Virus record (IMG/VR): IMGVR_UViG_3300028031_000002
Coordinates: 1-61,485 of that record
Source of the DNA: a virus
Direction: 5' to 3' (one strand)
DNA length: 61,485 nt
Part shown: piece after piece, positions 1,734 to 59,204 of the stretch
Layout of the letters: the number at the start of each line of letters is the position of its first letter
Numbering within the stretch: position 1 is the stretch's first letter
Notes under the pieces: model-generated
Told to the model about the DNA's origin: nothing
Seen by the model: only the letters and a program-made list of their open reading frames with translations
Databases searched by the model: none
Program-made: the position numbers and the translations under genes

Positions 1734-1752
1734 CACTTTTTTTTAAATATTT

Positions 1753-1795
1753 GTAAAACCAAAACTTCAAAAAGGCATTTTTGTCTTTTAGAAAG
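1753..1795 (+). repeat. fragment (3' part) of the 176-bp element
   Basis: gtaaaaccaaaacttcaaaaaggcatttttgtcttttag matches the conserved 3' third of the element. Confidence 0.6.
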
Positions 1796-1906
1796 AACTT
1801 TGAAAACACGCTAAAGTTTCAAAACTTCGAGTTACTCAAAAAGCCTTATAAATCAGTCTATTGAAAGTTTCCATTTTAAAAATTAGAACTAAAAAAAGCA
1901 TATATA

Positions 1907-2083
1907 TGTAACTCATTGAGTCTAAAGGACAAAAAGGCACTTTTGAAGTTTTGGTTTTATCAAAGCTTTAGCGACAGCAGAATGGTACTATCAAAGGGTT
2001 TATGAAACGCACTTTTATGGGTAAGCCCATTCTACTGACAAAGACTATAATATATAAGCATCTGTCAAAGAATTACCATCTAG
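1907..2083 (-). repeat. 176-bp intergenic element, copy R1
   Basis: Reverse complement of the CTAGATGG...GTTACA consensus. Lies upstream of the minus-strand unit ending at 1669. Confidence 0.9.
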
Positions 2084-2182
2084 CCAAAGACCCTAGCTTT
2101 GATTGTTATTAATTTTACTTTAAGTGTTGCATTAGTATATAGAACTGCAACAGAACAATCACAGCACTTTTCTGGTTTTTAC

Positions 2183-2358
2183 CTAGATGGTAATTCTTTG
2201 ACGAGTGCTTATATATTATAGTCTTTGTCAGTAGAATAGGCTTCCGCGCAAATTGAGTTTCATAAGCCCTTTGATAGTACCATTCTGCTGTCGCTAAAGC
2301 TTTGATAAAACCAAAACTTCAAAAGTGCCTTTTTATCCTTTAGACTCAGTAAGTTACA
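2183..2358 (+). repeat. 176-bp intergenic element, copy F1
   Basis: Full copy, inverted relative to R1 and about 100 nt from it. Confidence 0.9.
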
Positions 2359-2408
2359 TTATTTGTATTTATTTTTAATTATTTTTAAGATTGGAGACTT
2401 TCAAAGTA

Positions 2409-2436
2409 TTGAATTAAAAGGCAATTTAGGTATTAT
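2409..2436 (+). promoter_or_regulatory. promoter-like TTGAAT-16-TATTAT overlapping the GGAGACTTTCAAAGT box
   Basis: Part of the module downstream of copy F1. The palindrome ACTTTCAAAGT abuts the -35-like hexamer. Confidence 0.35.
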
Positions 2437-2621
2437 GAAGTTTTGAAACAAAATTGTGTCTAAATAATGCTTGACAGATACAACAGAATGGTACTATCAA
2501 AGTGCTTTATGAGTGCTGTGGAGGTAATATATGTTGCATTAATTGATCGGTTGTGTTATACGCGCGTTATATAGTACTGGTGAATAAACCATCAAAGAGC
2601 TTGAGCGTGCCTATATATTAG

Positions 2622-2797
2622 CTAGATGGTGATTCTTTGACGGGTGCTTATATATTATAGTCTTTGTCAGTAGAATAGGCTTCCGCGCCAAACCAGCTTT
2701 TAAAACCCTTTGATAGTACCATTCTGCTGTCGCTAAAGCTTTGATAAAACCAAAACTTCAAAAGTGCCTTTTTGTCCTTTAGACTCAATGAGTTACA
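2622..2797 (+). repeat. 176-bp intergenic element, copy F2
   Basis: Full copy in tandem with F1. Followed by the GGAAAC box and promoter 2909..2937. Confidence 0.9.
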
Positions 2798-2831
2798 ATA
2801 ATTGCAAGTATTTTAACTTATTTTTTAGATT

Positions 2832-2875
2832 GGAAACTTTTAAAGTGTTGAATTAAAAGACAATTTAGGTACAAT
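2832..2875 (+). promoter_or_regulatory. GGAAACTTTTAAAGT box plus TTGAAT-16-TACAAT promoter-like element
   Basis: Module downstream of copy F2. The same architecture recurs downstream of most element copies. Confidence 0.4.
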
Positions 2876-2908
2876 GAAGTTTTCAAACTCAAAAATTGCA
2901 AATAATGC

Positions 2909-5156: not shown

Positions 5157-5164
5157 AACTAATT

Positions 5165-5422: not shown

Positions 5423-5540
5423 AGTAGCAACATAATTGCACATTAAAAGCACCATATAGGCTTTAAGTGTGCAACAATGTTTCCACTTTAAAAGACAATC
5501 AAATGTCGCAATATTGCGCTTTGATGGTAGACTTTAGGAT
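5422..5540 (+). repeat. early intergenic hairpin-plus-leader element, copy C
   Basis: Hairpin 5435..5444 / 5465..5474 has a C to T change in the 5' arm that would give a G-U pair. The palindrome CGCAATATTGCG follows at 5507..5518. Confidence 0.75.
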
Positions 5541-5547
5541 AATTAGC

Positions 5548-5979
5548 ATGAATATTGAAACACAATTGGCGTTATGCACTAGTATTGAAGAAGCGCATAA
5601 AGTACTATCAAATACAAAAATGTTAAAGAAAGATTGGTTAGAAGTTGCCAAAAGAAATCAGTTATTTACATTAAAAAAGACAATAAAAGCTATTAAAGAG
5701 CAATTAGTACTTACATTAGTAGGTGCTAGATTAAATAGTACTGCAATTAGAGATACTTCTGTAGTAATAACGGATAACGTGCATAATATAGTCACAAAAG
5801 CGGCTATTACTGCCACTATAGGCGATATAGTACGATGTAAATATGCGGAAAACACCTTTTTAGCCTTTAGCATATCTACTGGAAAATGTTTAACTGCGGG
5901 TAATTATGGCAATCTTTCATTAGAGCCTAAATTGGCACTACAAAAAGTATCTAATTTTCTGTTTACTATCAAAGACTAA
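5548..5979 (+). CDS. hypothetical protein
   Basis: The track ORF 5467..5979 starts inside the intergenic hairpin element. The ATG at 5548 has a TAGGAT RBS. Confidence 0.55.
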   Translation: MNIETQLALCTSIEEAHKVLSNTKMLKKDWLEVAKRNQLFTLKKTIKAIKEQLVLTLVGARLNSTAIRDTSVVITDNVHNIVTKAAITATIGDIVRCKYAENTFLAFSISTGKCLTAGNYGNLSLEPKLALQKVSNFLFTIKD

Positions 5980-5999
5980 AACAACTTTAGGAGTACTTT

Positions 6000-6170
6000 A
6001 TGGAACTTATACAAAAACAAACTATACTTGTAACAGAGTTTTGTCAAATTGACAAGTTAAAACTTACCGTAACAGAACGCGCTATATTAAGATGTAATTT
6101 AATATTGCACACATGTGAAAAACCAGTTGGTTTAATGGCATGTCCATGTATACAGAATAAGGGTATGTAA
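6000..6170 (+). CDS. small Cys-rich hypothetical protein (56 aa, below the track cutoff)
   Basis: TAGGAG RBS 7 nt upstream. The TAATG overlap with the next gene suggests coupling. Contains 5 Cys. Confidence 0.5.
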   Translation: MELIQKQTILVTEFCQIDKLKLTVTERAILRCNLILHTCEKPVGLMACPCIQNKGM

Positions 6171-6394
6171 TGCAAACATTAGATAATACACTTTATTATG
6201 CTCTTTTGGAGTCAGATTTAATCATCACGAATAGAGGTATAGAACGTGTAAGACAAGCCATATTAAGCGCATCAAGAAACTCTTTAGATATGGGCTTCAG
6301 TAATATCGTAGTAACGGTAATAGTAGAGGCACTACGAAATGGAGATATAGACCATGTAGACAACATTTATGACATAATAGAGGAATATATATAA
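6170..6394 (+). CDS. hypothetical protein
   Basis: 74-aa ORF whose start overlaps the previous stop. Confidence 0.55.
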   Translation: MQTLDNTLYYALLESDLIITNRGIERVRQAILSASRNSLDMGFSNIVVTVIVEALRNGDIDHVDNIYDIIEEYI

Positions 6395-6515
6395 CATAAA
6401 AGGCACCGTATAGGCTGCTAATGTGCAATTATGTACCCAATTTAAAACTCCATTGAAGCGCAATAAAAGTACACTATCGTTCTTTACGCTTTGATGGCGC
6501 ATTTACGGTAAATAC
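6395..6515 (+). repeat. early intergenic hairpin-plus-leader element, copy D (5' arm missing)
   Basis: aaaggcaccgtataggctgctaatgtgcaattatgtaccca keeps the loop and the 3' arm only. Confidence 0.55.
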
Positions 6516-7683: not shown

Positions 7684-7709
7684 AAACCTCCTTAATTGGG
7701 GGTTTTTTT
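7684..7709 (+). terminator. intrinsic terminator
   Basis: aaacctcc-ttaatt-gggggttt followed by a T run, directly after CDS 7183..7674. Confidence 0.75.
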
Positions 7710-7751
7710 ACGTCTAAATTTTAGTAACTACTTTGATTTTTAATAAACCTC

Positions 7752-7779
7752 TTGACAACCGTGCTGAATAGTGTATAAT
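7752..7779 (+). promoter_or_regulatory. sigma70-type promoter (TTGACA-16-TATAAT)
   Basis: Follows terminator 7684..7709 and precedes CDS 7854. Confidence 0.75.
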
Positions 7780-9871: not shown

Positions 9872-10216
9872 ATGAACCATTTATATGTTGGTAAAGCAGT
9901 TGAATATAATGTTGGATCGTACCGGGTGCAACAAGGTGACTATAAAGGCACTATCAAAGGATTAGAAAAAGGTCTAATAACGGTATTAGGAATAGATGGA
10001 ACGGTGCATCATTTCAGCGAAGAAAATCACCTTGGATGCAACAATGAGTACAATGACAAGCTGTACGAGTACACAATAGAGGAAACCAAGAGACAATTGG
10101 CGTTGTGTCTGAGAGCGTTAGACCACGTAAAAGTATCAACAATACGTGCATATCAAGATGCTGCAATTGAGCTGGAACGCGCATTATTACGCAAGTTCAC
10201 TGACAATCAAAGCTAG
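9872..10216 (+). CDS. hypothetical protein
   Basis: 114-aa ORF with an AAGGA RBS. Its stop is embedded in repeat copy F3. Confidence 0.6.
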   Translation: MNHLYVGKAVEYNVGSYRVQQGDYKGTIKGLEKGLITVLGIDGTVHHFSEENHLGCNNEYNDKLYEYTIEETKRQLALCLRALDHVKVSTIRAYQDAAIELERALLRKFTDNQS

Positions 10217-10388
10217 ATGGTAATTCTTTGACGGGTGCTTATATATTATAGTATCTGTCAATAGAATGGGCTTCCCCATCAACTGCCCTTTTTAAGCCCT
10301 TTGATAGTACCACTTTGCTGTTGCTAAAGCTTTGATAAAACCAAAACTTCAAAAGTGCCTTTTTATCCTTTAGACTCAACTAGTTACA
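10213..10388 (+). repeat. 176-bp intergenic element, copy F3
   Basis: The TAG stop of CDS 9872..10216 is the TAG inside the element's leading CTAGATGG. Confidence 0.9.
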
Positions 10389-10496
10389 GTTTTATGGATT
10401 TAAAACTTTATTTTTTTAAAATGGAAACTTTTAAAGTATTGAATTAACTACCTTTTTCACTACTTTGAAAGTTTCAAAACTATTGCGAGAATTAAT

Positions 10497-11377: not shown

Positions 11378-11384
11378 AAAAAGG

Positions 11385-11560
11385 CTAGATGGTAATTCTT
11401 TGACAGGTGCTTATATATTATAGTATCTGTCAATAGAATGGGCTTCCGCGCCAATTGAGTTTTTTAAGCCCTTTGATAGTACCACTTTGCTGTTGCTAAA
11501 GCTTTGATAAAACCAAAACTTCAAAAGTGCCTTTTTATCCTTTAGATTCAATATGTTGCA
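11385..11560 (+). repeat. 176-bp intergenic element, copy F4
   Basis: Starts 8 nt after the TGA of 11042..11377. Followed by the GGAAAC box and promoter 11673..11700. Confidence 0.9.
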
Positions 11561-11672
11561 GTAATTACGTTTTTTTTAAGTTTATTTTTACGATGGAAAC
11601 TTTCAACTCATTGAATTAAAAGACAATTAGAGTACTTTGAAAGTTTCAGAAATTACTTTTAGTAATTAAGTG

Positions 11673-11700
11673 TTGCAAAAGTTTGTGGTTGTGGTATAAT
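11673..11700 (+). promoter_or_regulatory. sigma70-type promoter (TTGCAA-16-TATAAT, TGn extended -10)
   Basis: TTGCAAaagtttgtggttgtggTATAAT. The ORF-track ATG at 11699 lies inside the -10 hexamer. Confidence 0.7.
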
Positions 11701-15261: not shown

Positions 15262-15343
15262 CGGCAACTTTTGCACTTCTTTTGTTAAATCAAGTACTTA
15301 CAAAGTTCCATTTTAAATTTGAATTTAATTAAAACAATAAATC

Positions 15344-15530
15344 CATAACTCGTTGAGACTAAAGGATAAAAAGGCACTTTTGAAGTTTTGGTTTTATCAA
15401 AGTTTTAGCAACAGCAAAGTGGTACTATCAAAGGGCTGGACAATGGTGCGCTCGATGTACTTGGGGCAAAAGCACGTTTTACTGACAAAGACTATAATAT
15501 ATAAGCATCCGTCAAAGAATTACCATGTAG
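15344..15530 (-). repeat. 176-bp intergenic element, copy R2 (antisense to flanking genes)
   Basis: Full copy on the minus strand inside the plus-strand early block. No minus-strand ORF lies downstream. Confidence 0.9.
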
Positions 15531-15590
15531 CTAACGCACAATAATTGTTATATAAAATCCCTTTGATTGAGATTCTTATATTGCCAAAAA

Positions 15591-18597: not shown

Positions 18598-18790
18598 ATG
18601 TCCGTCAAAGGCTATTATAGTAATAGGCTTTGTCAGACTAATGGGCTTCTACGGCATTTTGACATATTTATGACAGGTACCAACACCCCTCAAATATATA
18701 TAATATACATGGACCACAAGAAAAGGCTTTGATGTCACAACTGAAGTTGCTTTGATGTTACTTCTAAGTAGGCACAAAAGAGCTTTTTTT
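18598..18790 (+). repeat. degenerate copy of the 176-bp element
   Basis: cgtcaaaggctattatagtaataggctttgtcagactaatgggcttc...ggctttgatg...gctttgatg...ggcacaaaag keeps the order of the conserved blocks but is heavily diverged. Confidence 0.45.
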
Positions 18791-22125: not shown

Positions 22126-23611
22126 AACTATAAATAACTTTAACATTACGCCGTCAGGTAAAATGCTCATAAATAGTAAAAAATCACGTATTTTCATTAG
22201 CGGTGCGGTAGGTAGTGGAAAAAGTACCGCGGCAATGATTGCGCTAGTAAAGCGCGGGATGGAACAACCCTTATATGGTGGTGTTAGGCGTTCTAGGCTG
22301 TTACTTTCAAGGTCAACTCGCCCTGAAATCCTAATGACTCTTCTAAAGACTTTTTTAATGCTATTTCCAACGACTAAAATGAAGTATGGGCATCCGATAA
22401 CTGGTACATTATCACTGTTGAACGATAAGAATGAACTTTGTGTATTAGAATTGGTCTTTCTAGCTGTTGGAAACAAAAAGGACGTGGACAAAATAAAGTC
22501 GTTTGAAATTACATGGGGTTATTTAAATGAGGTTACTGGTATACCATATGAAGTTTATGTGGCATACTTAAATCGCATTGGTAGATACCCATCAAAGATG
22601 AATGGAGGTGTAAACTCCTATGGCATAATATGTGACACTAACGCTTTTCCTACCACTCATTGGTTAAAAGAAAAGTTCTATAAAGACTTTCCTGTAATAT
22701 GTCCTGAAACAGGTGATTTTTTAGAGACTGATGATATGTTACTTATTAGGCAACCACCGGCTTTAAAAATGTTTCAAACTAAGGTTAAGGCGAATAAGTA
22801 TGCCAATAGTATTGGTTTCACGGTACATAAAAGTTTAAATAACCAATATTTCGTACAAAATCCACATTGTGACAACTTGACAAACTTACCTGATAAGTAT
22901 TATACTGCTTCAATTGAAGCTAAAACCACCCCAGACATTCGTGTAAACTATATGGGGCATTTTATGAGTGATGATGTGGGTAGTGCGGTATGTTACCCAA
23001 TGTTTAAGGAATATTTGCACATAACAGAAGAAACACAAAACCCTAAAAGTGCGTCTTTGGTAGCCTTGGGATGGGACTTTGGATTAACTCCGGCGTGTGT
23101 AATAACATATACAACAATAGTAAAGGATGAGGACTGTAATGCCATTTATAAAGTGCATGTTGCTGGTGAAGTATTAGGCATAAATGTTGGTTTAGAACAA
23201 TTTGTACCAGAGGTTACGTTAAAGCTAAATGAATTGGGAATCCAAATTAGTGACACACTCTCTTTTATAGATGTGGCAGGACAACAGCGTGCGCAAAGTG
23301 ATGAAAGTACATGTTTATCGGTACTGAACAAGTATGAATTTCAAACGGGTGGCACCGTAACTCAAAATGTAATGAGTAGACTAGAAGCGGTACGTAATTT
23401 GTTCTATACTGAGGGACAATTTACTGTTCACAGTGGTTGCACGTCCTTAATCCAAGGCTTTATCTCAGATTATAAATTCAGTGATTTAATGTTGATCAAA
23501 GGAATATTGAAACCTGACAAAGACAACAGCCATATACAGGACGCATTACAATATGTAGCGTTGGGAATAGACACATTATATGACATTGATGAGTCAATCA
23601 CAGGTTTTTAG
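22112..23611 (+). CDS. terL: terminase large subunit
   Basis: Walker A GAVGSGKS, Walker B-like ITWGYLNE, the nuclease-domain segment GWDFGLTPACVI and the C-terminal HIQDALQYVA. Confidence 0.85.
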   Translation: MSIIETINNFNITPSGKMLINSKKSRIFISGAVGSGKSTAAMIALVKRGMEQPLYGGVRRSRLLLSRSTRPEILMTLLKTFLMLFPTTKMKYGHPITGTLSLLNDKNELCVLELVFLAVGNKKDVDKIKSFEITWGYLNEVTGIPYEVYVAYLNRIGRYPSKMNGGVNSYGIICDTNAFPTTHWLKEKFYKDFPVICPETGDFLETDDMLLIRQPPALKMFQTKVKANKYANSIGFTVHKSLNNQYFVQNPHCDNLTNLPDKYYTASIEAKTTPDIRVNYMGHFMSDDVGSAVCYPMFKEYLHITEETQNPKSASLVALGWDFGLTPACVITYTTIVKDEDCNAIYKVHVAGEVLGINVGLEQFVPEVTLKLNELGIQISDTLSFIDVAGQQRAQSDESTCLSVLNKYEFQTGGTVTQNVMSRLEAVRNLFYTEGQFTVHSGCTSLIQGFISDYKFSDLMLIKGILKPDKDNSHIQDALQYVALGIDTLYDIDESITGF

Positions 23612-23787
23612 CTAGATGGTAATTCTCTGACAGGTGCTTATATATTATAGCATCTGTCAATAGAATGGGCTTCCTCGCAAACTGCGCTTTTAAAGCCCTT
23701 TGATAGTACCATTCTGCTATTGCTAAAGCTTTGATAAAACCAAAACTTCAAAAGTGACTTTTTATCCTTTAGACTCAACTAGTTACA
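23612..23787 (+). repeat. 176-bp intergenic element, copy F5
   Basis: Begins immediately after the terminase TAG (23609..23611). Confidence 0.9.
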
Positions 23788-23869
23788 TATTATTGGGTTT
23801 TTTAGCAGTGCTTTTTTATTTGGAAAGTTATAACACATTGAAATTTAACACGAAAAGGGTTCTATTATT

Positions 23870-32958: not shown

Positions 32959-33057
32959 CATATTTTAATGTTTTTTTTATTTTTGCGTATTCTCTAATAT
33001 ATTCAATAGCTTGAAGTATTCCATAGTACAATTCAAAACTATAAAAATCAATAAAAC

Positions 33058-33233
33058 TATAACTCGTTGAAATTAAATGCAAATAAGGCACTTTTGAAGT
33101 TTTGGTTTTATCAAAGCCTTTGTCACAACAGAACGGTACCATCAAAGGGGTTTGAAAGTGCAGTTTGTGGGGAAGCCCATTCTATTGACAAAGACTATAA
33201 TATATAAGCACCTGTCAAAGAATCACCATCTAG
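33058..33233 (-). repeat. 176-bp intergenic element, copy R3
   Basis: Starts 7 nt after the stop of 33241..33801. Lies upstream of promoter 32930..32958 and the primase-helicase gene. Confidence 0.9.
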
Positions 33234-33240
33234 CTACATA

Positions 33241-40160: not shown

Positions 40161-40380
40161 TAAAATTAGTCTGTCTAACGGTTTATTTGAGCATCAAAAT
40201 GTGCGTTTTATTAAGTCCATTAACGATATTACAATATTACAATTATGCACCGACAGTATTAAATACGATTTATTATTGGGCGCAATTGTTGAGTATCAAT
40301 ATCAGCAATATAAAATTATCAAAGTACAGATAGGCACCGCATACACTAAACTAACTACATTAAACACTAGCTGTTTTTAG
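40138..40380 (+). CDS. hypothetical protein (start uncertain)
   Basis: 80-aa ORF overlapping the previous ORF by 23 nt. Its stop abuts repeat copy F6. Confidence 0.4.
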   Translation: MQGTKVISKISLSNGLFEHQNVRFIKSINDITILQLCTDSIKYDLLLGAIVEYQYQQYKIIKVQIGTAYTKLTTLNTSCF

Positions 40381-40556
40381 CTAGATGGTGATTCTTCGAC
40401 AGATGCTTATATATTATAGTCTTTGTCAGTAGAATGGGCTTTTACACCAACCGAGCTTTTAAAGCCCTTTGATAGTAACACTCTTGCATTACTATTGCTT
40501 TGATAAAACCAAAACTTCAAAAGTGCCTTTTTAGCCTTTAGACTCAATGAGTTACA
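40381..40556 (+). repeat. 176-bp intergenic element, copy F6
   Basis: Begins right after the TAG at 40378..40380. Its downstream extension to about 40615 is nearly identical to the extension of R6. Confidence 0.9.
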
Positions 40557-40649
40557 ACTTTAGCACTTTATTTGTTCTCATTTTTTAAATGGAACTTTGT
40601 AAAGTGTTGTTTTTATTGCATTAATACAGTTTTAAAAGGAAAATTTTTT

Positions 40650-45353: not shown

Positions 45354-45375
45354 TGAACAATCAAAGGGCTTTTCG

Positions 45376-45562
45376 CTAGATGGTAATTCTTTGACATGTG
45401 CTTATATATTATAGTCTTTGTCAATAGAATGGGCTTCCACACAAGTTGCCTCAACCGCGCTATTGCCTAGCCCTTTGATAGTATCATTCTACCGTTGCTA
45501 TAATTTTGATTAAAATAAAACTCCAAAAGTGCCTTATTATCCTTTAGACTCAATGAGTTACA
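45376..45562 (+). repeat. 176-bp intergenic element, copy F7 (long-loop subfamily)
   Basis: Carries the longer variable insert ...ttgcctcaaccgcgctattgcctagccc, which is shared only with R6. Confidence 0.9.
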
Positions 45563-45646
45563 TTATTTGAGTTTTATTTAAGCTGTTTTTTATAATGGAA
45601 GCTTTTATGTTATTGAATTTATTACATTTTAAGGGAAAATAAAATT

Positions 45647-48600: not shown

Positions 48601-50062
48601 AAGTATGACTACAGGGGTATCTAAGGAAACCGAAAAGATGGCTACAAATGTTACTACGGATCTAAAACAAATGGTAACTAACGTCAGTGACAGCACCTCT
48701 AATATGAATACTAATGTAACACACGACGTTGTCGAAATGGGGCAACAAGTTGTTGCAACAACTGGTGAAATGCGCACCAATGTAGTTACTAATATTGCGG
48801 AAATGTCTGAAGGTTCCATAAATAATAGTGCATGGATGGCTACCGATGTTACATCAAACGCATTTCAAATGAACCATAACGTGGTATCAGAGTCCTCTCA
48901 AATGGCAACTAATGTGACTTCCAATGTTTCTACTATGGAAGAACGAGTTAGACAATCTACAGCAAGTATGGCTCAAACAGTTACTAAAGAAGCAATTGAC
49001 ATGCAATTTGGGGTCGTTCAAGCAACTGGAAAAATGGCCAGTAAAGTTGCTGTTGATGTAAACCAAATGCGGACTATTGCAGAAAATGAGATTAAAACTT
49101 TATCCACAAATGCAATTGCGTATACGGTACAAATGGGAAATGGTGTTATGAATACCATTATACAAATGTCAGATGGCTCAATGCGTGCCATAACAGACTT
49201 TGGGGATGCTATAGAAGTTGATATGGGTAATACCGCGGTAAATGTTGAAGTCATAACTAGACAATTAAAAGATGGTGTAGTTGCAAACTTCATTAAGTTA
49301 AAAGATGGCACATTAGTTGCCATTGGGGGTATGAGTGAATCATTTACCGCGCAGATGACAAATATGCAAATAAATGGTTACAATAAAAGTGTAGAAATGG
49401 AGCGCGGCGTTAGTTCTGCAATAGGTACGATGAGAACTAACGCGGTTTCTCAAGTGCAAAATATGGGTGCAGCAATGACGAGTTCATTTAATCAAACTAA
49501 AACTCAAATGATTCAAACAGCCGCAGAAATAGCACAAGTTAGAGCTACAGCAACAATAGAGCCATCGAAGCGTACTGAACAAAGTATTTCTATTGGACAA
49601 TCTCTTGGCGGTGGTATTATGAACGAAAGTTCAAACTCAATTGGAGACTTTATGGAGTCTAAAACTGAGGTGGAAAAAATGATGCAAAATAATTCAAGTA
49701 ATTCAGGTGGATTTCTAGCTTCAGTTAATAGTGGTACTTGGTACACACCACCGGAAATAGCCGAGTATGTACAAGATAAAAATGATCGTGAATCTGGTAT
49801 TTCTAGTAGTGGCACATTAGGTGCAAGAAGTAGCGGTCTCACTAATGTATATTCAGGTGATTCACTATCACGCGATTATACTTCATATTGGATTGCCTTA
49901 CAAAAATCTCATCCGGAACGTTATAAAGAGTATACAGATGGTACGGGTCATACTGCTAATGCAGCGGAGGCAAAGGCTTGGCAGGAACAACTATTGTTAC
50001 AATCAAAGGAGCAGACAAGCGCAATTAAAAGTAAAAACGATCTGGCTGCACCCATATATTAG
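45647..50062 (+). CDS. tail tape measure protein
   Basis: 1471 aa. The N-terminal third has the tape-measure core pattern (AGETSMSAKQLADGADLFALAGFKTKELIEIMPTLTSL...). The central part has degenerate M.TNVT repeats. Confidence 0.85.
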   Translation: MPRYTIKVESDFRAFKTDTTNAKKSIENLQKKIKEHISTPVDANTDQATRKFSKFRALLKKAHKIHVDVHANYDGKLKDLVDDRLKNRNIGLVIGSKPDIIAKKIMSGVFSSQVWKITAKVAGAAVIEGAEMAFKAAKRAAIGMGNSVRRAKDFITGFNVQLRITERGINFIARGSGAMGTAISYIGVDSANTFIGLNHQINRTIARTGEAVEQYEALKNSIIKLAGETSMSAKQLADGADLFALAGFKTKELIEIMPTLTSLVINSGESMTEVASRTSDSIKAWNLDMKLVVATGDRMTSGMSNAKTSVALLGHGMSSTNSIFKSAGQGMSALIAQLQVMSDRGIRTTVAGNALKTIIARLVAPSKEAGIWLSRLGVDVAEVGETSKTFAVQLQAVKDSMIAQKQAVEDLYQGYKNGQSLDAFEAQLNKLGITIRKSDGSLISYKKAIYRLQVAHGKALSTEQEATGSIEKFGKASIKSYAMLKKLGFEVKAASGKLRPLNDVVLQLSKSFEGLDESERIAAAAAIAGKLHASKFLAWLDGAKISSQQFKFLGEAIKFTTSELEAQTYRQDIATTHGQEFVLYLKSLGNSYKNTMVPVNRYTVAIDQNSKQIIAATGSTKNFLGLVKRFKTPVNSWEQAINSATKAVKNMGSGSDKLSLTLTKLGTKVKFDNINDQLNELKRHLILATDDQPVKDIISIMGNEMGQAFIAAAHKSSTFSDKVSKSFNGTVGAAKSMQGKIEGTTNHMLDVMISSWNSAMFKVGESMKPILDKLFQLGTAAAQALGEVLPPMIAKLSTYFDGFNVSVEGMKHKITSFFRIIGGIFEMVFNLFGAFIDKLGEMGLTAELVFSKIASFLGGMIDSFGYVIKTLDFFGIMSDETAEKTLAAFESLKDGIKSSTSAIAKSIDDSNTLIAKSETEMASDSALAVLGMTDEISQSFENMRVATQKSSVDMSKFVFDEHSSMTKEAQELQFAFAEAITQTYSSMTTGVSKETEKMATNVTTDLKQMVTNVSDSTSNMNTNVTHDVVEMGQQVVATTGEMRTNVVTNIAEMSEGSINNSAWMATDVTSNAFQMNHNVVSESSQMATNVTSNVSTMEERVRQSTASMAQTVTKEAIDMQFGVVQATGKMASKVAVDVNQMRTIAENEIKTLSTNAIAYTVQMGNGVMNTIIQMSDGSMRAITDFGDAIEVDMGNTAVNVEVITRQLKDGVVANFIKLKDGTLVAIGGMSESFTAQMTNMQINGYNKSVEMERGVSSAIGTMRTNAVSQVQNMGAAMTSSFNQTKTQMIQTAAEIAQVRATATIEPSKRTEQSISIGQSLGGGIMNESSNSIGDFMESKTEVEKMMQNNSSNSGGFLASVNSGTWYTPPEIAEYVQDKNDRESGISSSGTLGARSSGLTNVYSGDSLSRDYTSYWIALQKSHPERYKEYTDGTGHTANAAEAKAWQEQLLLQSKEQTSAIKSKNDLAAPIY

Positions 50063-50239
50063 CTAGATGGTAATTCTTTGACAGGTGCTTATATATTATA
50101 GTATCTGTCAATAGAATGGGCTTCCGCGCCAATTGAGTTTTTTTAAGCCCTTTGATAGTACCGTTCTGCTGTTGCTAAAGCTTTGATAAAACCAAAACTT
50201 CAAAAGTGCCTTTTTGTCCTTTAGATTCAACTAGTTACA
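50063..50239 (+). repeat. 176-bp intergenic element, copy F8
   Basis: Begins right after the tape-measure TAG (50060..50062). No downstream ORF before hairpin 50332..50368. Confidence 0.9.
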
Positions 50240-50331
50240 ATATTTATGATTTTTAAATTTAGTTTTTTATAATGGAAACTTACAAGTGCTTGATTAAATT
50301 ACTAAAATAGGTTATTTTTTTTAAAAAAAAA

Positions 50332-53641: not shown

Positions 53642-53753
53642 CACTTAATTAATAAAAGTAGTTTTTGAAACTTTTAAAGTACCGTAATTGTCTTGTAATT
53701 CAGTACGTTGGAGATTCCCAACACAAAAAACTAAATAAATAAAACCTAATTAA

Positions 53754-53929
53754 TATAACTCATTGAGTCTAAAGGATAATAAGGCACATTTGAAGTTTTG
53801 GTTTTAATCAAAATGTTATCACAGCAAAGTGGTACTATCAAAGGGCTTTAAAAGAGCAGTTGATGGGGAAGCCCATTCTATTGACAGATACTATAATATA
53901 TAAGCACCTGTCAAAGAATCACCATTTAG
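53754..53929 (-). repeat. 176-bp intergenic element, copy R4
   Basis: Starts 1 nt after the DNA polymerase stop codon. The first block is slightly diverged (ctaaatgg). Confidence 0.85.
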
Positions 53930-53930
53930 T

Positions 53931-56204
53931 TTAGATTGCAACTTCTTTAAAAAGTTCTTCAGAAACCTTTGATGCACTTCCTTTGAACTTTGTTGAAGGC
54001 CCTTTATGGTCCTTTAATGCGCATAATATAATCTTTAAGTGATCATCACTCATTTCTTTAGTCGCTCTATATTGAATACTTTGTTCACCAAAAGATTCTT
54101 TAAAGGTCTTTAAAGACCTATCACGTTGCGATTCTGTGGCTTTGATGTGATCCTCTAACATAGTTGTGTAAGACTCTTTTGACCATACCCTACCTTCTTC
54201 TACGCTCATTTTCATGTCCATGTCTGGTAAAAACCGATCTATTCCACGGCTCATTGAATGTTTCAATACTGAATTCACGTATTCCCTATGTTCTGATTTA
54301 TATACCAAACTTAATTCATCATGAATTGATGCCCCAGCAGTTACTTTATTGATCATACCGTCATCATATAACTTTGTTACACACTCATAAATTGCCAATT
54401 TCATTGCTTCTGAGCATAAGCCCTGCATAGGACTGTTGCTGATCTTTCTCGTAGCAGCGCGGTACTGTTGCCGTTTTATGTTTTCCTTGTCTAATGACAA
54501 ATAACGACGACGACCTGATTCTAGCAGTACATATCCGTTTTGTAATCCAATTACTAAGTTGTCATATTGCATCTCACCAATGTTTGGTAGGTTTTCAAAA
54601 AACTTTTTTTGTAAGTTATCCGCATGTGATACACTGCATTCTAAGCCTTCCGCAATGGCATATGTAGATTGACCATAGATAAGACCAAAACCAATAGCTT
54701 TGGCGGCTTGTCGCTGTTCTGGTGTGACTTCATTGTATGGTACTTCCATCATCAAAGAAGCTACAAATTTATGTGCATCCAACCCTTCATTCATTGCTCT
54801 AATCATTTCTTTTTCGCCAGATAACTGGAACATTAACCACATTTCAACCGCCGTATAGTCGCATGTAGAAATACCAAAGCCTTGAGGCACCTTAAATGCT
54901 TTTCTCCATTCTTTCTTTTGATTCTGTAGGTTTATCTTGGTTTTACTATCACCAGTAGAACTGAATCTGCCTGTAACCGCACCATTTATGCGATAATTAC
55001 TGGATAGCATCATTAAAGTTTCACCTTTTATGCCACATAACGCGCTTGCATTTTCGTACTGTTTCCTATTTTCTATGGGCGTATTATAGATGTCGAGTAA
55101 TTCAATTTTCGTATTTAGAGAATAATTGTTATCATCTAGTGGTGACGGTATAGCTTTTCCTAAGTTTGGCAAACTCTTATTACTTAAAGTAGCCTTAAAG
55201 TCTAGTAATAATTGTGCATCATCACTGGCTTTACCGCTGTTCTTCTTAGCTAAAAATGTTAGTGTTGCTTTATCAGAACTTTCCAATTTAATGTCGTAGG
55301 TGGTCTTAAAATGTTCTTTAATTTGCTTCGATGAATTAGCGTTAATGTCTCTTAGAGGACTCATTGCGTAATGTACCGCACATTTAACATGGTCATTAGC
55401 CTCAGTCTCTAAGATTCTATTGTACTCGCTTCTTGAAAAGGGTAATCCGCCCCGCTCTAAAAATGCTACTCCTACCGCTGCATAGTTGTCCATTTGCCAC
55501 GCATCCAAAGAGTCTATTGATGCCAATTTATTATATACTTGAAAATATATTGGTGCCATAACTTGCACATCAAGCGCGGCATATCCTAACTGGCTCTCTG
55601 TCAACTCCCCCTGCATTGCCTCAATTGTTCCAAATGATAGTTGTTCCTCTTTTTGTAGGACATATTCTATATATCTTGATGCACTTTTTGCCAATGATGG
55701 GTAGGTAGATTCTCCATTCTCTTGTGCCAATTTAGCCCCTAACATAAGGCAGTGTGTGTTCTTTGGCAATAACTCAAATGATAATAACATTCTAATATCA
55801 AATGATGCGTTATAAAAGACTTTTACAATATTCTCATCCTCAAATATTTCCTTTACCACTTCCAGCATCTTATCTAATGATTTAGCCTGCACTATCTTAG
55901 GTATGTTTAATATGAAAGTATAATGACCGTCAAAGAACTGAATTAACGTAATTGCAGAGTTAATTTTAGTTACTTCTCCAGTAGACTCTTTCGTAGTACT
56001 ATAAGTGGTGTAATGATCTAACCCTAATGTTTCGGTATCTACAGCCAACCAACACGGTTTATTATTTGGTTTTGACCAAAAACTCTTTAGCTTCGATAGC
56101 TCTTTATAAGTTGATATGATCACAGGCTTAGCTTGATCATCAGCTATAAACTTAGTGACTTTCATAGACTTTTGAAGTGCTTGGTTGTTTGTTATTCTCA
56201 TCAT
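53931..56204 (-). CDS. DNA polymerase, family A, with a 3'-5' exonuclease domain
   Basis: Exonuclease motifs VDTETLGL, NASFDIRML and YAALDV. Polymerase motifs DYTAVEMW (A), RQAAKAIGFGLIYG (B) and SIHDE (C). Confidence 0.95.
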   Translation of the reverse strand: MMRITNNQALQKSMKVTKFIADDQAKPVIISTYKELSKLKSFWSKPNNKPCWLAVDTETLGLDHYTTYSTTKESTGEVTKINSAITLIQFFDGHYTFILNIPKIVQAKSLDKMLEVVKEIFEDENIVKVFYNASFDIRMLLSFELLPKNTHCLMLGAKLAQENGESTYPSLAKSASRYIEYVLQKEEQLSFGTIEAMQGELTESQLGYAALDVQVMAPIYFQVYNKLASIDSLDAWQMDNYAAVGVAFLERGGLPFSRSEYNRILETEANDHVKCAVHYAMSPLRDINANSSKQIKEHFKTTYDIKLESSDKATLTFLAKKNSGKASDDAQLLLDFKATLSNKSLPNLGKAIPSPLDDNNYSLNTKIELLDIYNTPIENRKQYENASALCGIKGETLMMLSSNYRINGAVTGRFSSTGDSKTKINLQNQKKEWRKAFKVPQGFGISTCDYTAVEMWLMFQLSGEKEMIRAMNEGLDAHKFVASLMMEVPYNEVTPEQRQAAKAIGFGLIYGQSTYAIAEGLECSVSHADNLQKKFFENLPNIGEMQYDNLVIGLQNGYVLLESGRRRYLSLDKENIKRQQYRAATRKISNSPMQGLCSEAMKLAIYECVTKLYDDGMINKVTAGASIHDELSLVYKSEHREYVNSVLKHSMSRGIDRFLPDMDMKMSVEEGRVWSKESYTTMLEDHIKATESQRDRSLKTFKESFGEQSIQYRATKEMSDDHLKIILCALKDHKGPSTKFKGSASKVSEELFKEVAI

Positions 56205-56263: not shown

Positions 56264-56362
56264 ACAATTTAAAAAGAAATTTAAAAGTTATCTTAATTGT
56301 CTTATATTTCAATACTTTGGAAGTTTCCAATGTAAAAAATAAACTTAAAAAAGTACAAATAA

Positions 56363-56538
56363 CGTAACTCATTGAGTCTAAAGGACAAAAAGGCACTTTT
56401 GAAGTTTTGGTTTTATCAAAGCTTTAGCGACAGCAGAATGGTACTATCAAAGGGCTTTAAAAGCTATGTTTGTGAGTATGCCCATTCTACTGACAAAGAC
56501 TATAATATATAAGCACCTGTCAAAGAATTACCATCTAG
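56363..56538 (-). repeat. 176-bp intergenic element, copy R5
   Basis: Lies between terminator 56540..56589 and promoter 56235..56263 of the polymerase gene. Confidence 0.9.
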
Positions 56539-56539
56539 C

Positions 56540-56589
56540 AAAAAAAAAGCCACTATCCGCGCATTGATAATGCTTAGATGGTGGCTTTG
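56540..56589 (-). terminator. intrinsic terminator
   Basis: On the minus strand: agccaccatc...gatagtggct followed by T9, 10 nt after the stop of 56600..57436. Confidence 0.75.
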
Positions 56590-58935: not shown

Positions 58936-59017
58936 TTTTAAATTTCCAATTTAGTTAATTAAATCAACACTTTACAAAGTTCCATTTAAAAAATGAGAAC
59001 AAATAAAGTGCTAAAGT

Positions 59018-59204
59018 TGTAACTCATTGAGTCTAAAGGCTAAAAAGGCACTTTTGAAGTTTTGGTTTTATCAAAAGTTTATTGACAGCAGAATGGTACT
59101 ATCAAAGGGCTAGGCAATAGCGCGGTTGAGGCAATTTGTGTGAATGCCCATTCTACTGACAAAGACTATAATATATAAGCATCCGTCAAAGAATCACCAT
59201 CTAT
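59018..59204 (-). repeat. 176-bp intergenic element, copy R6 (long-loop subfamily)
   Basis: Its core resembles F7. The downstream extension at 58960..59017 resembles that of F6. Confidence 0.9.

What the first reader, a model, noticed from the sequence alone, without database searches (positions are those of the whole stretch)
10213..10388. A ~176-bp element present 14 times that punctuates nearly every transcription unit
Full copies on the plus strand: 2183..2358, 2622..2797, 10213..10388, 11385..11560, 23612..23787, 40381..40556, 45376..45562, 50063..50239. Full copies on the minus strand: 1907..2083, 15344..15530, 33058..33233, 53754..53929, 56363..56538, 59018..59204. Fragments lie at 1753..1795, 2483..2503 and 18598..18790.

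What the sequence shows:
- All copies are intergenic.
- Eleven directly precede a co-oriented gene. F1 lies in tandem upstream of F2, and two copies are orphans.
- The 27-mer tgataaaaccaaaacttcaaaagtgcc is identical in 11 of 14 copies.
- The element begins with CTAGATGG placed at or next to the upstream stop codon. The TAG of 9872..10216 is inside it. A TAG immediately precedes it at 23609, 40378 and 50060. The polymerase stop is 1 nt away.
- Stem 1 is ATTCT-TTGACAG / CTGTCAA-T-AGAAT. The two sequence subfamilies differ by changes that keep A-U or G-U pairing.
- Stem 2 is GGGCTT / AAGCCC around a hypervariable loop of roughly 16-32 nt.
- The 3' end carries a conserved TTCAAA-17-TAGACT promoter-like pair.
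- No reading frame is conserved across copies.

Inference: conservation over this length is far more than a promoter or terminator needs. I do not recognise the element as a described family. It could be a structured RNA or processing signal, a regulator-binding cassette, or a MITE-like selfish element that targets gene ends.
Basis: partly seen in the sequence, partly recalled or inferred. Interest (0 to 1): 0.85.

Follow-up and report, generated by a model that had tools for sequence, protein, structure and literature searches.

The report
Repeated 260-nt intergenic boundary cassette
An orphan 61-kb phage carries 14 copies of a roughly 260-nt non-coding cassette that starts at the stop codons of upstream genes, folds as an RNA on the coding strand and carries promoter-like signals, so it is probably a reusable operon-boundary module of a kind not described before, but its function is untested.

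Summary
There are exactly 14 full copies at the stated coordinates, plus 3-4 fragments. The unit is longer than reported: about 258 nt, plus an upstream ACAATCAAAG box.

- **No homologue found.** Rfam, GenBank phages, plasmids, IMG/VR, JGI metagenomes, GTDB genomes and a peptide search all gave nothing. The phage itself is an orphan.
- **Old copies under selection.** Some segments are invariant (mean pairwise difference 0.01-0.04). Others are saturated (0.4-0.55). Nearest neighbours change block by block, which indicates recombination between copies.
- **Folding is strand-specific.** Stem 1 (P2) and a new hairpin (P4) pair 98% and 95% on the sense strand, against 81% and 58% on the antisense strand. 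All common polymorphisms are G-U/A-U/G-C switches. No double compensatory change exists.
- **Promoter-like pair kept.** TTCAAA-17-TAnnnT is present in 13-14 copies. Consensus sigma-70 promoters follow at fixed offsets in five copies, so the element is not simply "the" promoter.
- **Definitions not met.** It has no terminal inverted repeats, no target duplications and no terminator-type hairpin with a U-tract.

Best reading (about 0.4): a transcribed boundary cassette that combines an RNA structure ending the upstream message with re-initiation signals. It is analogous to the PeSL cassettes of T4-like phages but much larger.

The parts
10204..10212 (+). Upstream box CAATCAAAG of the focal copy. 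It is the reverse complement of the internal CTTTGAT boxes. Here it lies inside the end of ORF 9872-10216.
   Evidence: The motif occurs 10 times in the genome against about 1 expected. Seven occurrences lie 9-76 nt upstream of a copy in the sense orientation. The MFE fold pairs it with box 1 or box 2 in 7 of the 12 copies that have it.
10213..10220 (+). Sharp 5' edge CTAGATGG, which often supplies the stop codon of the upstream gene. It is also the candidate 5' strand of closing helix P1.
   Evidence: Four of the genome's 12 TAG stops are supplied by this edge.
10223..10267 (+). A 16-17 bp hairpin with one bulge and an invariant 16-nt apical loop, TGCTTATATATTATAG.
   Evidence: Energy is -10 to -19 kcal/mol in all copies, with z down to -5.7. 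Pairing is 97.8% on the sense strand and 80.8% on the antisense strand. Mean pairwise difference in the loop is 0.009.
10268..10299 (+). GGGCTT/AAGCCC around a hypervariable loop, with an 11-nt insertion in three copies.
   Evidence: Loop diversity is 0.42. The stem is broken in 8 of 14 copies with no compensation and no strand bias.
10297..10323 (+). Box 1 (CCCTTTGATAGTACC) and hairpin P4 (UGAUAGUA / UGCUGUYG, half G-U pairs). The 5' arm is invariant and the 3' arm is variable.
   Evidence: Pairing is 94.6% on the sense strand and 58.0% on the antisense strand. The hairpin is kept in 13 of 14 copies. Copies p40381 and p45376 use an alternative 3' strand.
10329..10359 (+). Box 2 (GCTTTGATAAAACC) and the near-invariant 27-mer, with an A-tract and the small palindrome ACTTCAAAAGT.
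   Evidence: Diversity is 0.042.
10348..10376 (+). Weak sigma-70-like promoter pair, TTCAAA-17-TAGACT. The -10-like box overlaps the 3' strand of candidate helix P1 (CCTTTAG).
   Evidence: TTCAAA is present in 13 of 14 copies, TAnnnT in 14 of 14, and the 17-nt spacer in 14 of 14. It matches 8 of 12 consensus positions.
10377..10468 (+). 3' extension. It consists of a 10-nt saturated patch, two T-runs, and the (A/T)TGGAAAC...TTGAAT box, which can be read as an 8-codon mini-ORF.
   Evidence: Diversity is 0.32-0.54.
2180..2438 (+). Full copy, in tandem upstream of the next copy.
   Evidence: nhmmer E = 1e-75.
2618..2878 (+). Full copy. A perfect sigma-70 promoter follows at 2909-2937.
11383..11640 (+). 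Full copy. A promoter follows at 11673-11700 (offset 288).
23608..23864 (+). Full copy between the terminase large subunit gene and thymidylate synthase.
40377..40623 (+). Full copy inside the structural operon.
45373..45641 (+). Full copy upstream of the tape-measure gene. Copy-specific changes create an internal promoter, TTGATA-18-TGCTATAAT, at 45475-45504.
50060..50314 (+). Orphan copy after the tape-measure stop. A 13-bp terminator hairpin follows at 50332-50368.
1827..2087 (-). Full copy. A perfect promoter follows at 1733-1705.
15266..15534 (-). Orphan copy, antisense to both neighbouring genes. The terminator hairpin at 15222-15256 follows it.
32979..33236 (-). Full copy, the most diverged, upstream of the primase-helicase gene. 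A promoter follows at 32958-32930.
53674..53931 (-). Full copy 1 nt after the PolA stop. A perfect promoter follows at 53641-53614.
56286..56541 (-). Full copy upstream of PolA. A terminator-like hairpin with a T9 run precedes it, and a promoter follows at 56263-56235.
58938..59204 (-). Full copy upstream of ORF 58243-58935.
2413..2519 (-). Inverted partial copy (profile positions 75-168) lying between the two tandem copies.
   Evidence: nhmmer E = 7e-7.
1750..1792 (+). Fragment covering only the 27-mer and promoter-like part.
   Evidence: nhmmer E = 5e-6.
18613..18657 (+). Strongly diverged remnant inside a 770-nt intergenic region. It keeps a different hairpin, GGGCTTC, and two GCTTTGATGT boxes.
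   Evidence: nhmmer E = 0.005. Sequence read.

Best explanation
The element is a reusable, orientation-specific operon-boundary cassette.

**Shown**
- It starts at or next to the upstream stop codon.
- It lies in the same orientation as the upstream gene in all copies that have one.
- Its sense strand can form a long hairpin (P2) with an invariant AU-rich loop. It can also form a small hairpin (P4) and a variable hairpin (P3).
- An upstream anti-box can pair with two internal CTTTGAT boxes.
- It carries a conserved weak sigma-70-like promoter: an A-tract, TTCAAA, a 17-nt spacer and TAnnnT.
- An AT-rich leader follows. In the probable ancestral form a consensus sigma-70 promoter follows at a fixed 275-288 nt.
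- The copies are old, selectively constrained and mosaic.

**Inferred**
- The core is transcribed as the 3' untranslated end of the upstream message.
- There it serves as a processing, stabilising or insulating structure. P2 would be a double-strand-specific (RNase III-type) or protein-recognition site, and the invariant loop would be the recognition determinant.
- Transcription of the next unit restarts from the cassette's own weak promoter and/or from the strong promoter behind it.
- The family spread and stays similar through recombination between copies, as proposed for the PeSL cassettes of T4-like phages.
For: - **Real, and specific to this genome.**
- **Heterogeneous constraint.** Mean pairwise difference is 0.009 in the P2 loop, 0.014 in the P4 5' arm and 0.042 in the 27-mer. 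It is 0.42-0.55 in the P3 loop, the variable patch and the flanks. Neutral sites are therefore saturated, and the rest is under selection.
- **Strand-specific pairing.** P2 pairs 97.8% on the sense strand and 80.8% on the antisense strand. P4 pairs 94.6% and 58.0%. P1 pairs 95.9% and 84.7%.
- **Polymorphisms preserve pairing.** All common polymorphisms in P2 and P4 are G-U to A-U or G-C switches.
- **Folding energy.** Mean z is -2.14 for the sense strand and -0.90 for the antisense strand. The sense strand is more stable in 10 of 14 copies.
- **P4 is maintained.** It is rebuilt with a different 3' strand in two copies.
- **Upstream box.** It is enriched tenfold and correctly placed and oriented. 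It is predicted to pair with box 1 or box 2.
- **Junction with stop codons.**
- **Promoter-like pair is kept.** This holds even in the most diverged copy. In p45376 the -35 box has decayed while a new TTGATA-18-TGCTATAAT arose 50 nt upstream, which looks like promoter turnover.
- **Fixed-offset consensus promoters downstream.**
- **Mosaic nearest neighbours.**
- **A second, smaller cassette family in the same genome.** It also abuts stop codons and combines a hairpin with a promoter-like part.
- **Orphan copy.** The copy at 50060-50314 has no gene to promote, yet it is intact and sits between a stop codon and a terminator.
- **Published analogues.** PeSLs start at upstream stop codons, carry stem-loops with G-T pairs, act as terminator plus promoter, and flank the DNA polymerase gene (PMC2839356, read). 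Correia elements create promoters and are bound or cleaved by RNase III (PMC2649163, abstract).
Against: - There is no double-sided compensatory change in any helix, and the shuffle control is uninformative.
- The helices were predicted on the sense strand. Part of the strand asymmetry may therefore reflect how they were ascertained.
- G-T wobble pairs are also tolerated in single-stranded DNA.
- P1, P3 and P5 are weakly supported, and different copies have different MFE folds.
- P2 has no U-tract. The terminator scan flags nothing inside the copies.
- Three copies sit at the head of the divergent early control region, with no upstream gene to terminate.
- One copy is preceded by its own terminator-like hairpin, so it may be rarely transcribed from upstream.
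- The internal promoter matches only 8 of 12 consensus positions.
- There are no expression data and no homologue in any other genome.
Confidence: 0.4

Rival explanations
1. The element is a DNA-level control region. It would be a roughly 200-bp platform bound by a phage or host DNA-binding protein. That protein could be, for example, the KilA-N or Bro-N domain proteins of this phage, or an IHF-like host factor. The binding sites would be three ATCAAAG/CTTTGAT boxes and the P2 palindrome. Binding would activate or repress the cassette's weak promoter and the strong promoter 275-288 nt downstream.
For: - The ATCAAAG/CTTTGAT 7-mer occurs three times per unit. The two internal copies are direct repeats 32 bp apart, about three helical turns.
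- Long stretches are invariant at the level of primary sequence, including the P2 loop and the 27-mer.
- Consensus promoters lie at fixed offsets.
- Three copies sit at the head of the divergent early region, where there is no upstream message.
- A similar palindrome, AACTTTTCAAAAAAGTG, lies upstream of the -35 box of two early promoters.
- KilA-N and Bro-N proteins are encoded.
Against: - The arms of P2 vary while its centre is invariant. That is the opposite of a typical dimer-binding palindrome.
- Arm changes preserve pairing on one strand only.
- The distance from the upstream box to the core varies from 9 to 76 nt without helical phasing.
- Copies that have lost the downstream promoter keep the core equally well.
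- The orphan copy after the tape-measure gene faces only a terminator.
Confidence: 0.2
2. The element is a selfish, non-autonomous mobile or recombination-driven repeat with no function for the phage. It would tolerate only intergenic sites just after genes. It would be mobilised either by a host enzyme acting on single-stranded DNA hairpins or simply copied by ectopic recombination.
For: - It has 14 copies plus fragments, about 6% of the genome.
- Its 5' edge is sharp, including where the upstream flank is non-coding.
- It supplies stop codons to four genes.
- Nested, inverted and truncated copies cluster at 1750-2880.
- Nearest neighbours are mosaic.
- Orientation follows the gene strand and hence possibly the lagging-strand template, as reported for hairpin-dependent single-strand transposons (from my own knowledge).
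- Pneumococcal BOX/RUP/SPRITE repeats were judged parasitic (PMC3049150).
Against: - There are no terminal inverted repeats and no target-site duplications.
- Conservation at the 3' boundary decays gradually.
- No copy was found in 185,579 species-representative genomes, in plasmids or in metagenome collections.
- No transposase, HUH protein or reverse transcriptase was recognised among the proteins scanned.
- Saturated segments lie next to invariant ones, which indicates long-term purifying selection and not a recent burst.
- Mobile elements are reported to be rare in phage genomes (PMC11602168).
Confidence: 0.15
3. The core is an autonomous functional RNA of a new class. It could be, for example, a self-cleaving ribozyme or a protein-recruiting RNA. 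It would cut or mark polycistronic transcripts exactly at cistron ends, and the upstream box would act as a translation-sensitive switch.
For: - The pattern fits a structured RNA: a multi-stem fold with near-invariant loops and junctions, a variable-length peripheral hairpin, and stems that vary only by wobble-compatible changes.
- The closing helix would explain why the core ends exactly at CTAGATGG and at CCTTTAG.
- The upstream box lies in or just after the upstream coding region and competes with P4 and P5.
- There is no Rfam match.
Against: - There is no compensatory covariation.
- P1, P3 and P5 are weak.
- MFE folds are inconsistent between copies.
- The most diverged copy breaks P1 but keeps TAnnnT.
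- Three copies have no obvious promoter upstream of them.
- The element is known from a single genome.
Confidence: 0.15

Closest known systems
PeSL (promoter-early stem-loop) cassettes of T4-like phages RB49/phi1 (PMC2839356; PMC4122927)
   Same: - Dispersed intergenic cassettes.
- They run from the upstream stop codon to the downstream Shine-Dalgarno site.
- They combine a stem-loop containing G-T pairs with promoter signals and an AT-rich tract.
- They flank the DNA polymerase gene.
- They recombine with each other.
   Different: - PeSLs are short and built around perfect sigma-70 early promoters. Their GC-rich stem-loops act as terminators, and they are confined mostly to hyperplastic early regions.
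- This element is about 260 nt with several hairpins and long invariant non-promoter segments.
- Its own promoter-like pair is weak (8 of 12 consensus positions).
- Its main hairpin has no U-tract.
- It also occurs in replication and structural operons.
Correia repeat enclosed elements (CREE) of Neisseria (PMC2649163)
   Same: - Roughly 100-150-nt dispersed intergenic repeats that are co-transcribed with neighbouring genes.
- They can supply promoters.
- Their RNA hairpin is bound or cleaved by RNase III.
- They include an IHF site. One strand of box 2 here fits WATCAANNNNTTR by eye (not tested).
   Different: - CREE have long terminal inverted repeats and a TA target duplication. They occur in hundreds of copies in a bacterial chromosome.
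- This element has neither inverted repeats nor target duplications.
- It is strictly oriented with the genes.
- It is confined to one phage genome.
BOX / RUP / SPRITE repeats of Streptococcus pneumoniae (PMC3049150)
   Same: - Modular, highly structured, transcribed intergenic repeats.
- They have a variable internal module.
- They are thought to influence co-transcribed genes through secondary structure.
   Different: - They are chromosomal, occur in either orientation, and were judged parasitic.
- There is no sequence similarity.
- This element has a fixed orientation and a promoter-like 3' part.
RNase III processing sites of phage T7, often paired with T7 promoters (from my own knowledge)
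   Same: About ten conserved intergenic hairpins that cut polycistronic phage transcripts between cistrons and leave a stabilising 3' hairpin. Several lie next to phage promoters.
   Different: - T7 sites are single hairpins of about 50-60 nt, with an internal loop and modest sequence conservation. The promoter precedes the hairpin.
- Here the structure precedes the promoter-like pair, and the unit is four to five times longer.
Canonical MITEs (definition in PMC11602168)
   Same: Small, non-coding, multi-copy and intergenic.
   Different: - Terminal inverted repeats of at least 10-15 bp and target-site duplications of 2-10 bp are both absent here.
- No host copies were found.

Membership tests
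Any Rfam 15 RNA family (ribozymes, riboswitches, T-box, phage RNA motifs) | Match to a covariance model | tested here: not met
   cmscan of the whole window at E <= 1 gave only three chance-level hits. None lies in a copy.
MITE | Terminal inverted repeats of at least 10-15 bp | tested here: not met
   The best inverted matches between the 5' 30 nt and any 3' position are 8-12 nt with mismatches. Their positions are inconsistent, and four copies have none.
MITE | Target-site duplication of 2-10 bp flanking each copy | tested here: not met
   For any 3' boundary between offsets 150 and 320 and k = 3-6, at most 3 of 14 copies match.
MITE | Related copies or a parent transposon in host genomes | tested here: not met
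   Two invariant-column patterns found nothing in GTDB representative genomes or in plasmids. The host is unknown, so absence is not proof.
PeSL promoter-terminator cassette | Located between the upstream stop codon and the downstream SD/start, with an AT-rich tract | tested here: met
PeSL promoter-terminator cassette | Sequence identical or near-identical to the sigma-70 consensus inside the repeat | tested here: not met
   The conserved pair TTCAAA-17-TAGACT matches 8 of 12 positions. Consensus promoters lie outside the conserved core, at offsets 275-350, in six copies only.
PeSL promoter-terminator cassette | Stable stem-loop acting as terminator or attenuator | tested here: inconclusive
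   P2 is stable (-10 to -19 kcal/mol). It has no U-tract and is not flagged by the terminator scan. Function cannot be tested here.
PeSL promoter-terminator cassette | Recombination between copies | tested here: met
   Block-wise nearest neighbours differ. Inverted and truncated copies exist.
Intrinsic (Rho-independent) terminator | GC-rich hairpin immediately followed by a U-run | tested here: not met
   No site inside any copy appears in the scans. The T-runs at profile positions about 203-223 are not preceded by a conserved hairpin.
RNase III processing site | Double-stranded RNA stem of roughly two helical turns, cleaved in vivo | not testable with these tools
   P2 offers 16-17 bp plus a bulge. 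Cleavage needs an experiment.
Hairpin-dependent single-strand transposon ends (IS200/IS605, REP/RAYT type) | A cognate HUH (Y1) transposase in the genome or host | tested here: inconclusive
   No such domain was found in the roughly 40 proteins scanned with Pfam. Small ORFs were not scanned, and the host is unknown.
Guide-carrying RNA (scaffold plus variable targeting loop) | Variable segment complementary to a target | tested here: not met
   The longest matches of the P3 loops and the variable patch to the masked genome equal those of shuffled controls.

The most novel reading that the evidence does not exclude
The core is a previously undescribed class of structured phage RNA. It would physically punctuate polycistronic transcripts at stop codons, either by self-cleavage or by recruiting a nuclease or RNA-binding protein through the invariant P2 loop. 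The upstream ACAATCAAAG box would act as a switch read out by the terminating ribosome, so that processing is coupled to translation of the upstream cistron.
Probability: 0.2. Interest if true: 0.85.

Novelty: new variant of a known kind. Interest (0 to 1): 0.6.

Why it matters
- **Genome investment.** About 6% of this phage genome goes into 14 copies of one non-coding unit. Its invariant segments have been held constant while neighbouring positions saturated.
- **If the boundary-cassette reading is right.** It would show that phages outside the T4 group organise long operons with portable, recombining boundary modules. These would be far more elaborate than the known promoter/stem-loop cassettes.
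- **Testable parts.** It would give a defined RNA hairpin with an invariant loop as a handle for finding the factor that reads it.
- **If the core is an autonomous RNA.** It would be a new RNA class.
- **Practical value.** The unit is a ready-made marker for recognising relatives of an otherwise orphan phage lineage.
- **Limits.** It is known from a single metagenomic genome, the host is unknown, and there are no expression data.

Tried and rejected
- **Homologues elsewhere.** I ran blastn/megablast against GenBank phages and plasmids. I ran exact and invariant-column pattern scans of IMG/VR, JGI metagenomes and GTDB genomes. I searched the 5.8-billion-protein set with peptides from the three open frames of the element. 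I looked for phage relatives through the coat protein and PolA. All were negative. The one distant relative contig (44% coat identity, 5.3 kb) has no room for an element at the equivalent position.
- **Known RNA family.** None. There are also no tRNAs.
- **Canonical MITE.** No terminal inverted repeats and no target-site duplications.
- **Intrinsic terminator.** No hairpin plus U-run lies inside any copy. The variable patch does not maintain a hairpin before the T-runs (by eye).
- **Variable loop as a guide or address.** No complementarity above shuffled controls.
- **Conserved coding frame.** The long open frames (one sense, two antisense) are explained by the absence of indels. An (A/T)TG-GAA mini-ORF of 8-30 codons is open in all 14 copies, but it has no Shine-Dalgarno site and I could not show significance. 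It is left as unexplained.
- **Phage sigma factor, RNA polymerase, transposase or reverse transcriptase acting on the element.** None was recognised.
- **Alternative-sigma readings of the TGGAAAC...TTGAAT box (sigma-54, sigma-H, ECF types).** I considered these by eye only. Spacing or key bases do not fit, and I did not pursue them.
- **Orphan-copy decay as a discriminator.** The antisense orphan is moderately degenerate (7 deviations), but three gene-associated copies are more so. The argument is weak.
Full report
**1. What the window is**

- The two ends of the window are identical (1-127 = 61359-61485). It is therefore a complete, circularly assembled genome of about 61.36 kb. The source record is ENA ERZ27262698, a contig of 61,499 bp.
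- It is a tailed phage. It encodes a tape-measure protein (45647-50062), a P22-like coat protein (37679-38884), a terminase large subunit (22112-23611) and PolA (53931-56204, minus strand).
- It also encodes a primase-helicase (29637-32894, minus strand), both ribonucleotide reductase subunits, thymidylate synthase and dUTPase.
- G+C content is about 33%. There are no tRNA genes.
- Genes use clear Shine-Dalgarno sites. The genome contains at least seven perfect TTGACA-16/17-TATAAT promoters. The host therefore has ordinary sigma-70 and SD signals.
- The phage is an orphan lineage.
  - The coat protein has a single relative among 5.8 billion proteins, at 44% identity on a 5.3-kb contig.
  - PolA has only cellular relatives at about 30% identity.
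  - GenBank phages and IMG/VR hold nothing close.

**2. The observation**

  - The 27-mer is exact in 11 copies and has one mismatch in a twelfth.
  - A 65-nt pattern using only the columns invariant in all copies matches 14 times, against 0 in shuffles.
  - A profile search finds exactly 14 full copies with E <= 1e-68.
- The profile search also finds fragments: an inverted partial copy (2413-2519), a short fragment (1750-1792), and two weak remnants (18613-18657 and 60182-60225).
- Each full copy matches about 258 profile positions, not 176.
- Upstream, an ACAATCAAAG box occurs 10 times in the genome, against about 1 expected. Seven occurrences lie 9-76 nt upstream of a copy in the same orientation, and five more copies carry one-mismatch variants.
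- This box is the reverse complement of two internal CTTTGAT boxes.

**3. No homologue anywhere**

- There is no Rfam 15 match at E <= 1.
- There is no blastn match in GenBank phages or plasmids.
- Exact and invariant-column patterns found nothing in IMG/VR, JGI metagenomes or one genome per GTDB species.
- DNA scans do not reach the Logan, ENA or NCBI assemblies. I therefore searched the 5.8-billion-protein set with the three peptides that stay open across most copies, in case gene callers had predicted ORFs across homologous elements. Nothing was found.
It also means no cross-genome covariation test is possible.

**4. Age and constraint**

- Variation is very unevenly distributed.

| Segment | Mean pairwise difference |
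|---|---|
| P2 apical loop (16 nt) | 0.009 |
| CCCTTTGATAGTA segment (box 1 / P4 5' arm) | 0.014 |
| 27-mer | 0.042 |
| P3 loop | 0.42 |
| Variable patch | 0.54 |
| Flanks | about 0.5 |

- Neutral positions are therefore near saturation while neighbouring segments are frozen. This argues for old copies under purifying selection and against a recent burst of a selfish element.
- At the same time, nearest neighbours change from block to block. For example, copy 2622 is closest to 2183, 11385, 2083 and 2183 again in four successive blocks. Inverted and truncated copies cluster at 1750-2880.
- The copies therefore exchange segments by recombination.

**5. Folding**

- The consensus fold of the sense strand is a closed multi-branch structure.

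| Helix | Sequence | Note |
|---|---|---|
| P1 | CTAGAxGG with CCTTTAG | Closes the structure |
| P4 | UGAUAGUA/UGCUGUYG | New hairpin |
| P5 | UUUGA/UCAAA | |

- No pair shows a change on both sides, so classical covariation is absent. The shuffle control is uninformative.
- The informative signal is strand asymmetry.

| Helix | Paired on sense strand | Paired on antisense strand |
|---|---|---|
| P2 | 97.8% | 80.8% |
| P4 | 94.6% | 58.0% |
| P1 | 95.9% | 84.7% |
| P3 | 86.9% | 91.7% |
| P5 | 94.3% | 97.1% |

- Every common polymorphism in P2 and P4 is a transition that switches between G-U and A-U or G-C. Pair-breaking changes are found in only one or two copies each.
- P2 is stable in all copies (-10 to -19 kcal/mol). 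P4 is weak but kept in 13 of 14 copies.
- In the two copies whose P4 3' strand is disrupted, a different downstream stretch pairs with the same invariant 5' arm.
- Folding z-scores average -2.14 for the sense strand and -0.90 for the antisense strand. The sense strand is the more stable in 10 of 14 copies.
- In transcripts that include 90 nt of upstream flank, the upstream box pairs with box 1 or box 2 in 7 of the 12 copies that have it.
- Caveats:
  - The helices were predicted on the sense strand, which favours that strand.
  - G-T wobble pairs are tolerated in single-stranded DNA too.
  - P3 has a broken pair in 8 of 14 copies.
  - MFE folds differ among copies.

**6. Relation to promoters, terminators and genes**

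- The core abuts the upstream gene. Its own TAGCTAG edge supplies the stop codon of four genes, out of only 12 TAG stops in the genome.
- The promoter-like pair is conserved. TTCAAA is present in 13 of 14 copies, TAnnnT in 14 of 14 and the 17-nt spacer in 14 of 14, preceded by an A-tract.
- That pair matches only 8 of 12 consensus positions, and its -10-like box overlaps the 3' strand of P1.
- The most diverged copy (33236) breaks P1 but keeps TAnnnT. This favours a promoter over a closing helix in that copy.
- In the copy before the tape-measure gene, TTCAAA has decayed to TCCAAA. Copy-specific changes there create TTGATA-18-TGCTATAAT 50 nt upstream. This looks like promoter turnover.
- Good consensus promoters lie downstream of six copies, five of them at fixed offsets from the element's 5' end.

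| Offset from the element's 5' end | Copies |
|---|---|
| 287-288 nt | 2622, 11385, 53929 |
| 275 nt | 33233, 56538 |
| 350 nt | 2083 |

- Copies 11385 and 53929 are homologous right through this promoter. The ancestral unit therefore probably comprised the structured core, an AT-rich leader and a sigma-70 promoter, about 316 nt in all. Copies in the structural operon have lost the promoter part but keep the core.
- No terminator-type hairpin with a U-run lies inside any copy.
- The two orphan copies are each followed, about 270 nt from their 5' end, by a strong terminator hairpin.
- Three copies sit at the head of the divergent early control region (1700-2940), where no upstream gene exists.
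- Other unit boundaries use a plain terminator-promoter pair (7684-7779). Four early junctions use a separate 80-nt hairpin cassette (3952-6454, -23.9 kcal/mol) that also starts at stop codons. The late-operon start has no copy.

**7. Interpretation**

- The best-supported reading is a composite boundary cassette.
  - The structured core would be transcribed at the 3' end of the upstream message. It would act as a processing, stabilising or insulating structure, with P2 and its invariant loop as the recognition determinant.
  - Transcription would then re-initiate from the weak internal promoter and, where present, from the strong promoter behind it.
  - The family would spread and be homogenised by recombination between copies.
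- Shown: the repeat family, its anatomy, the heterogeneous constraint, the strand-biased pairing, the promoter-like conservation, the fixed-offset promoters and the mosaicism.
- Inferred: that the core is transcribed, that the RNA is the active form, and what it does. I put this reading at about 0.4.
- Rivals:
  - a DNA-level multi-site binding platform (0.2);
  - a selfish non-canonical mobile repeat (0.15);
  - an autonomous new RNA class such as a ribozyme (0.15).
- The last rival overlaps the most novel reading that the evidence does not exclude.

**8. Comparison with known systems**

- **PeSL cassettes.** The closest functional analogue is the PeSL cassette of T4-like phages.
  - PeSLs run from upstream stop codons to the next SD.
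  - They contain stem-loops with G-T pairs.
  - They work as terminator plus promoter.
  - They flank the polymerase gene and recombine (PMC2839356, read; PMC4122927, listed but not read).
  - This element is not a member, because its conserved promoter-like pair is not consensus and its hairpin lacks terminator features.
- **Correia elements.** These can create promoters and are bound or cleaved by RNase III (PMC2649163, abstract).
- **Pneumococcal BOX repeats.** These are structured, co-transcribed repeats (PMC3049150).
- **Limits of the bacterial analogues.** Both are bacterial analogues only. Correia elements have an inverted-repeat structure, with a TA target duplication and hundreds of chromosomal copies as I recall. 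BOX repeats are chromosomal.
- **Canonical MITEs.** Membership fails on both defining features (definition from PMC11602168; test).
- **T7 RNase III sites.** These are a mechanistic analogue for cistron punctuation (from my own knowledge).

**9. Verdict**

- This is a real, unusually large and strongly constrained intergenic repeat family with no described relative.
- It is most likely a new, elaborate variant of the phage regulatory-cassette theme, with an RNA-level component.
- Its function is unproven, and it is known from one metagenomic genome with no known host. That limits immediate testability.
- Interest: 0.6.

Noticed in passing
window 3952-4031, 4750-4829, 5421-5500, 6375-6454 (+): A second repeat family of four 80-nt units in the early region. 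Each starts at the stop codon of the upstream gene. The first three fold into a 10-bp-core hairpin (TTGCACACTA...TAGTGTGCAA, about -23.5 kcal/mol for the unit), while the diverged fourth copy at 6375 folds only weakly (-11.5 kcal/mol). The hairpin is followed by ACTTTTAAAGTGCC, which resembles the main element's invariant ACTTCAAAAGTGCC, and by a promoter-like GTGCCA-16-TACAAT. It looks like a PeSL-type cassette.
   Followed up: partly
window 15788-15964 and 16617-16701 (+): Three copies of an 85-nt early-promoter repeat with perfect TTGACA-17-TATAAT. Two of them carry the palindrome AACTTTTCAAAAAAGTG upstream of the -35 box. Most strong promoters in this genome have GTG immediately before TTGACA.
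   Followed up: partly
window 15591-15746 (+): Two tandem 78-nt repeats (97% identical) containing several TGCCAA-N5-TTGGCA-like palindromes. They lie between the antisense orphan copy and the early promoters. This could be an operator or iteron array, or a replication origin.
   Followed up: no
window 221-700 and 28136-28606 (+): Two regions of about 470 nt, 27.9 kb apart, that are 70-74% identical. They cover small minus-strand ORFs (260-415 and 28140-28385) and their flanks. This is a diverged duplication of unknown meaning.
   Followed up: no
window 1-127 and 61359-61485: The terminal 127 nt are identical. This fits a circular-assembly overlap, or a terminal redundancy, of a complete genome of about 61.36 kb.
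   Followed up: partly
window 18162-18934: An unusually long (770-nt) intergenic region. It holds a strongly diverged remnant of the element with a different hairpin but the same GGGCTTC and two GCTTTGATGT boxes.
   Followed up: partly
window 11699 (+) and 53615 (-): The first ATG of two listed ORFs lies inside the -10 hexamer (TATAATG) of a strong promoter. The real start codons must therefore lie further downstream.
   Followed up: no
window 50603-51190 (-) and 4067-4756 (+): The first is a Bro-N plus T5orf172/MUG113 (GIY-YIG-like) protein, and the second is a KilA-N domain protein. These are the only recognisable DNA-binding or nuclease-type candidates that could act on the repeats.
   Followed up: no
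profile positions about 226-252 of every copy, e.g. window 10421-10447: An (A/T)TG-GAA... mini-ORF of 8-30 codons (e.g. METFKVLN*) is open in all 14 copies. Variation looks synonymous at several third positions (TTC/TTT, GTA/GTG, TTG/CTG). It has no Shine-Dalgarno site. Whether it is coding, a hairpin or promoter-like is unresolved.
   Followed up: partly
window 2084-2182: Between the two back-to-back copies lies a hairpin, GTTGCA-N14-TGCAAC, flanked by one upstream box on each strand: CAATCAAAG on the minus strand and the variant CAATCACAG on the plus strand. This is the centre of the divergent early control region.
   Followed up: no
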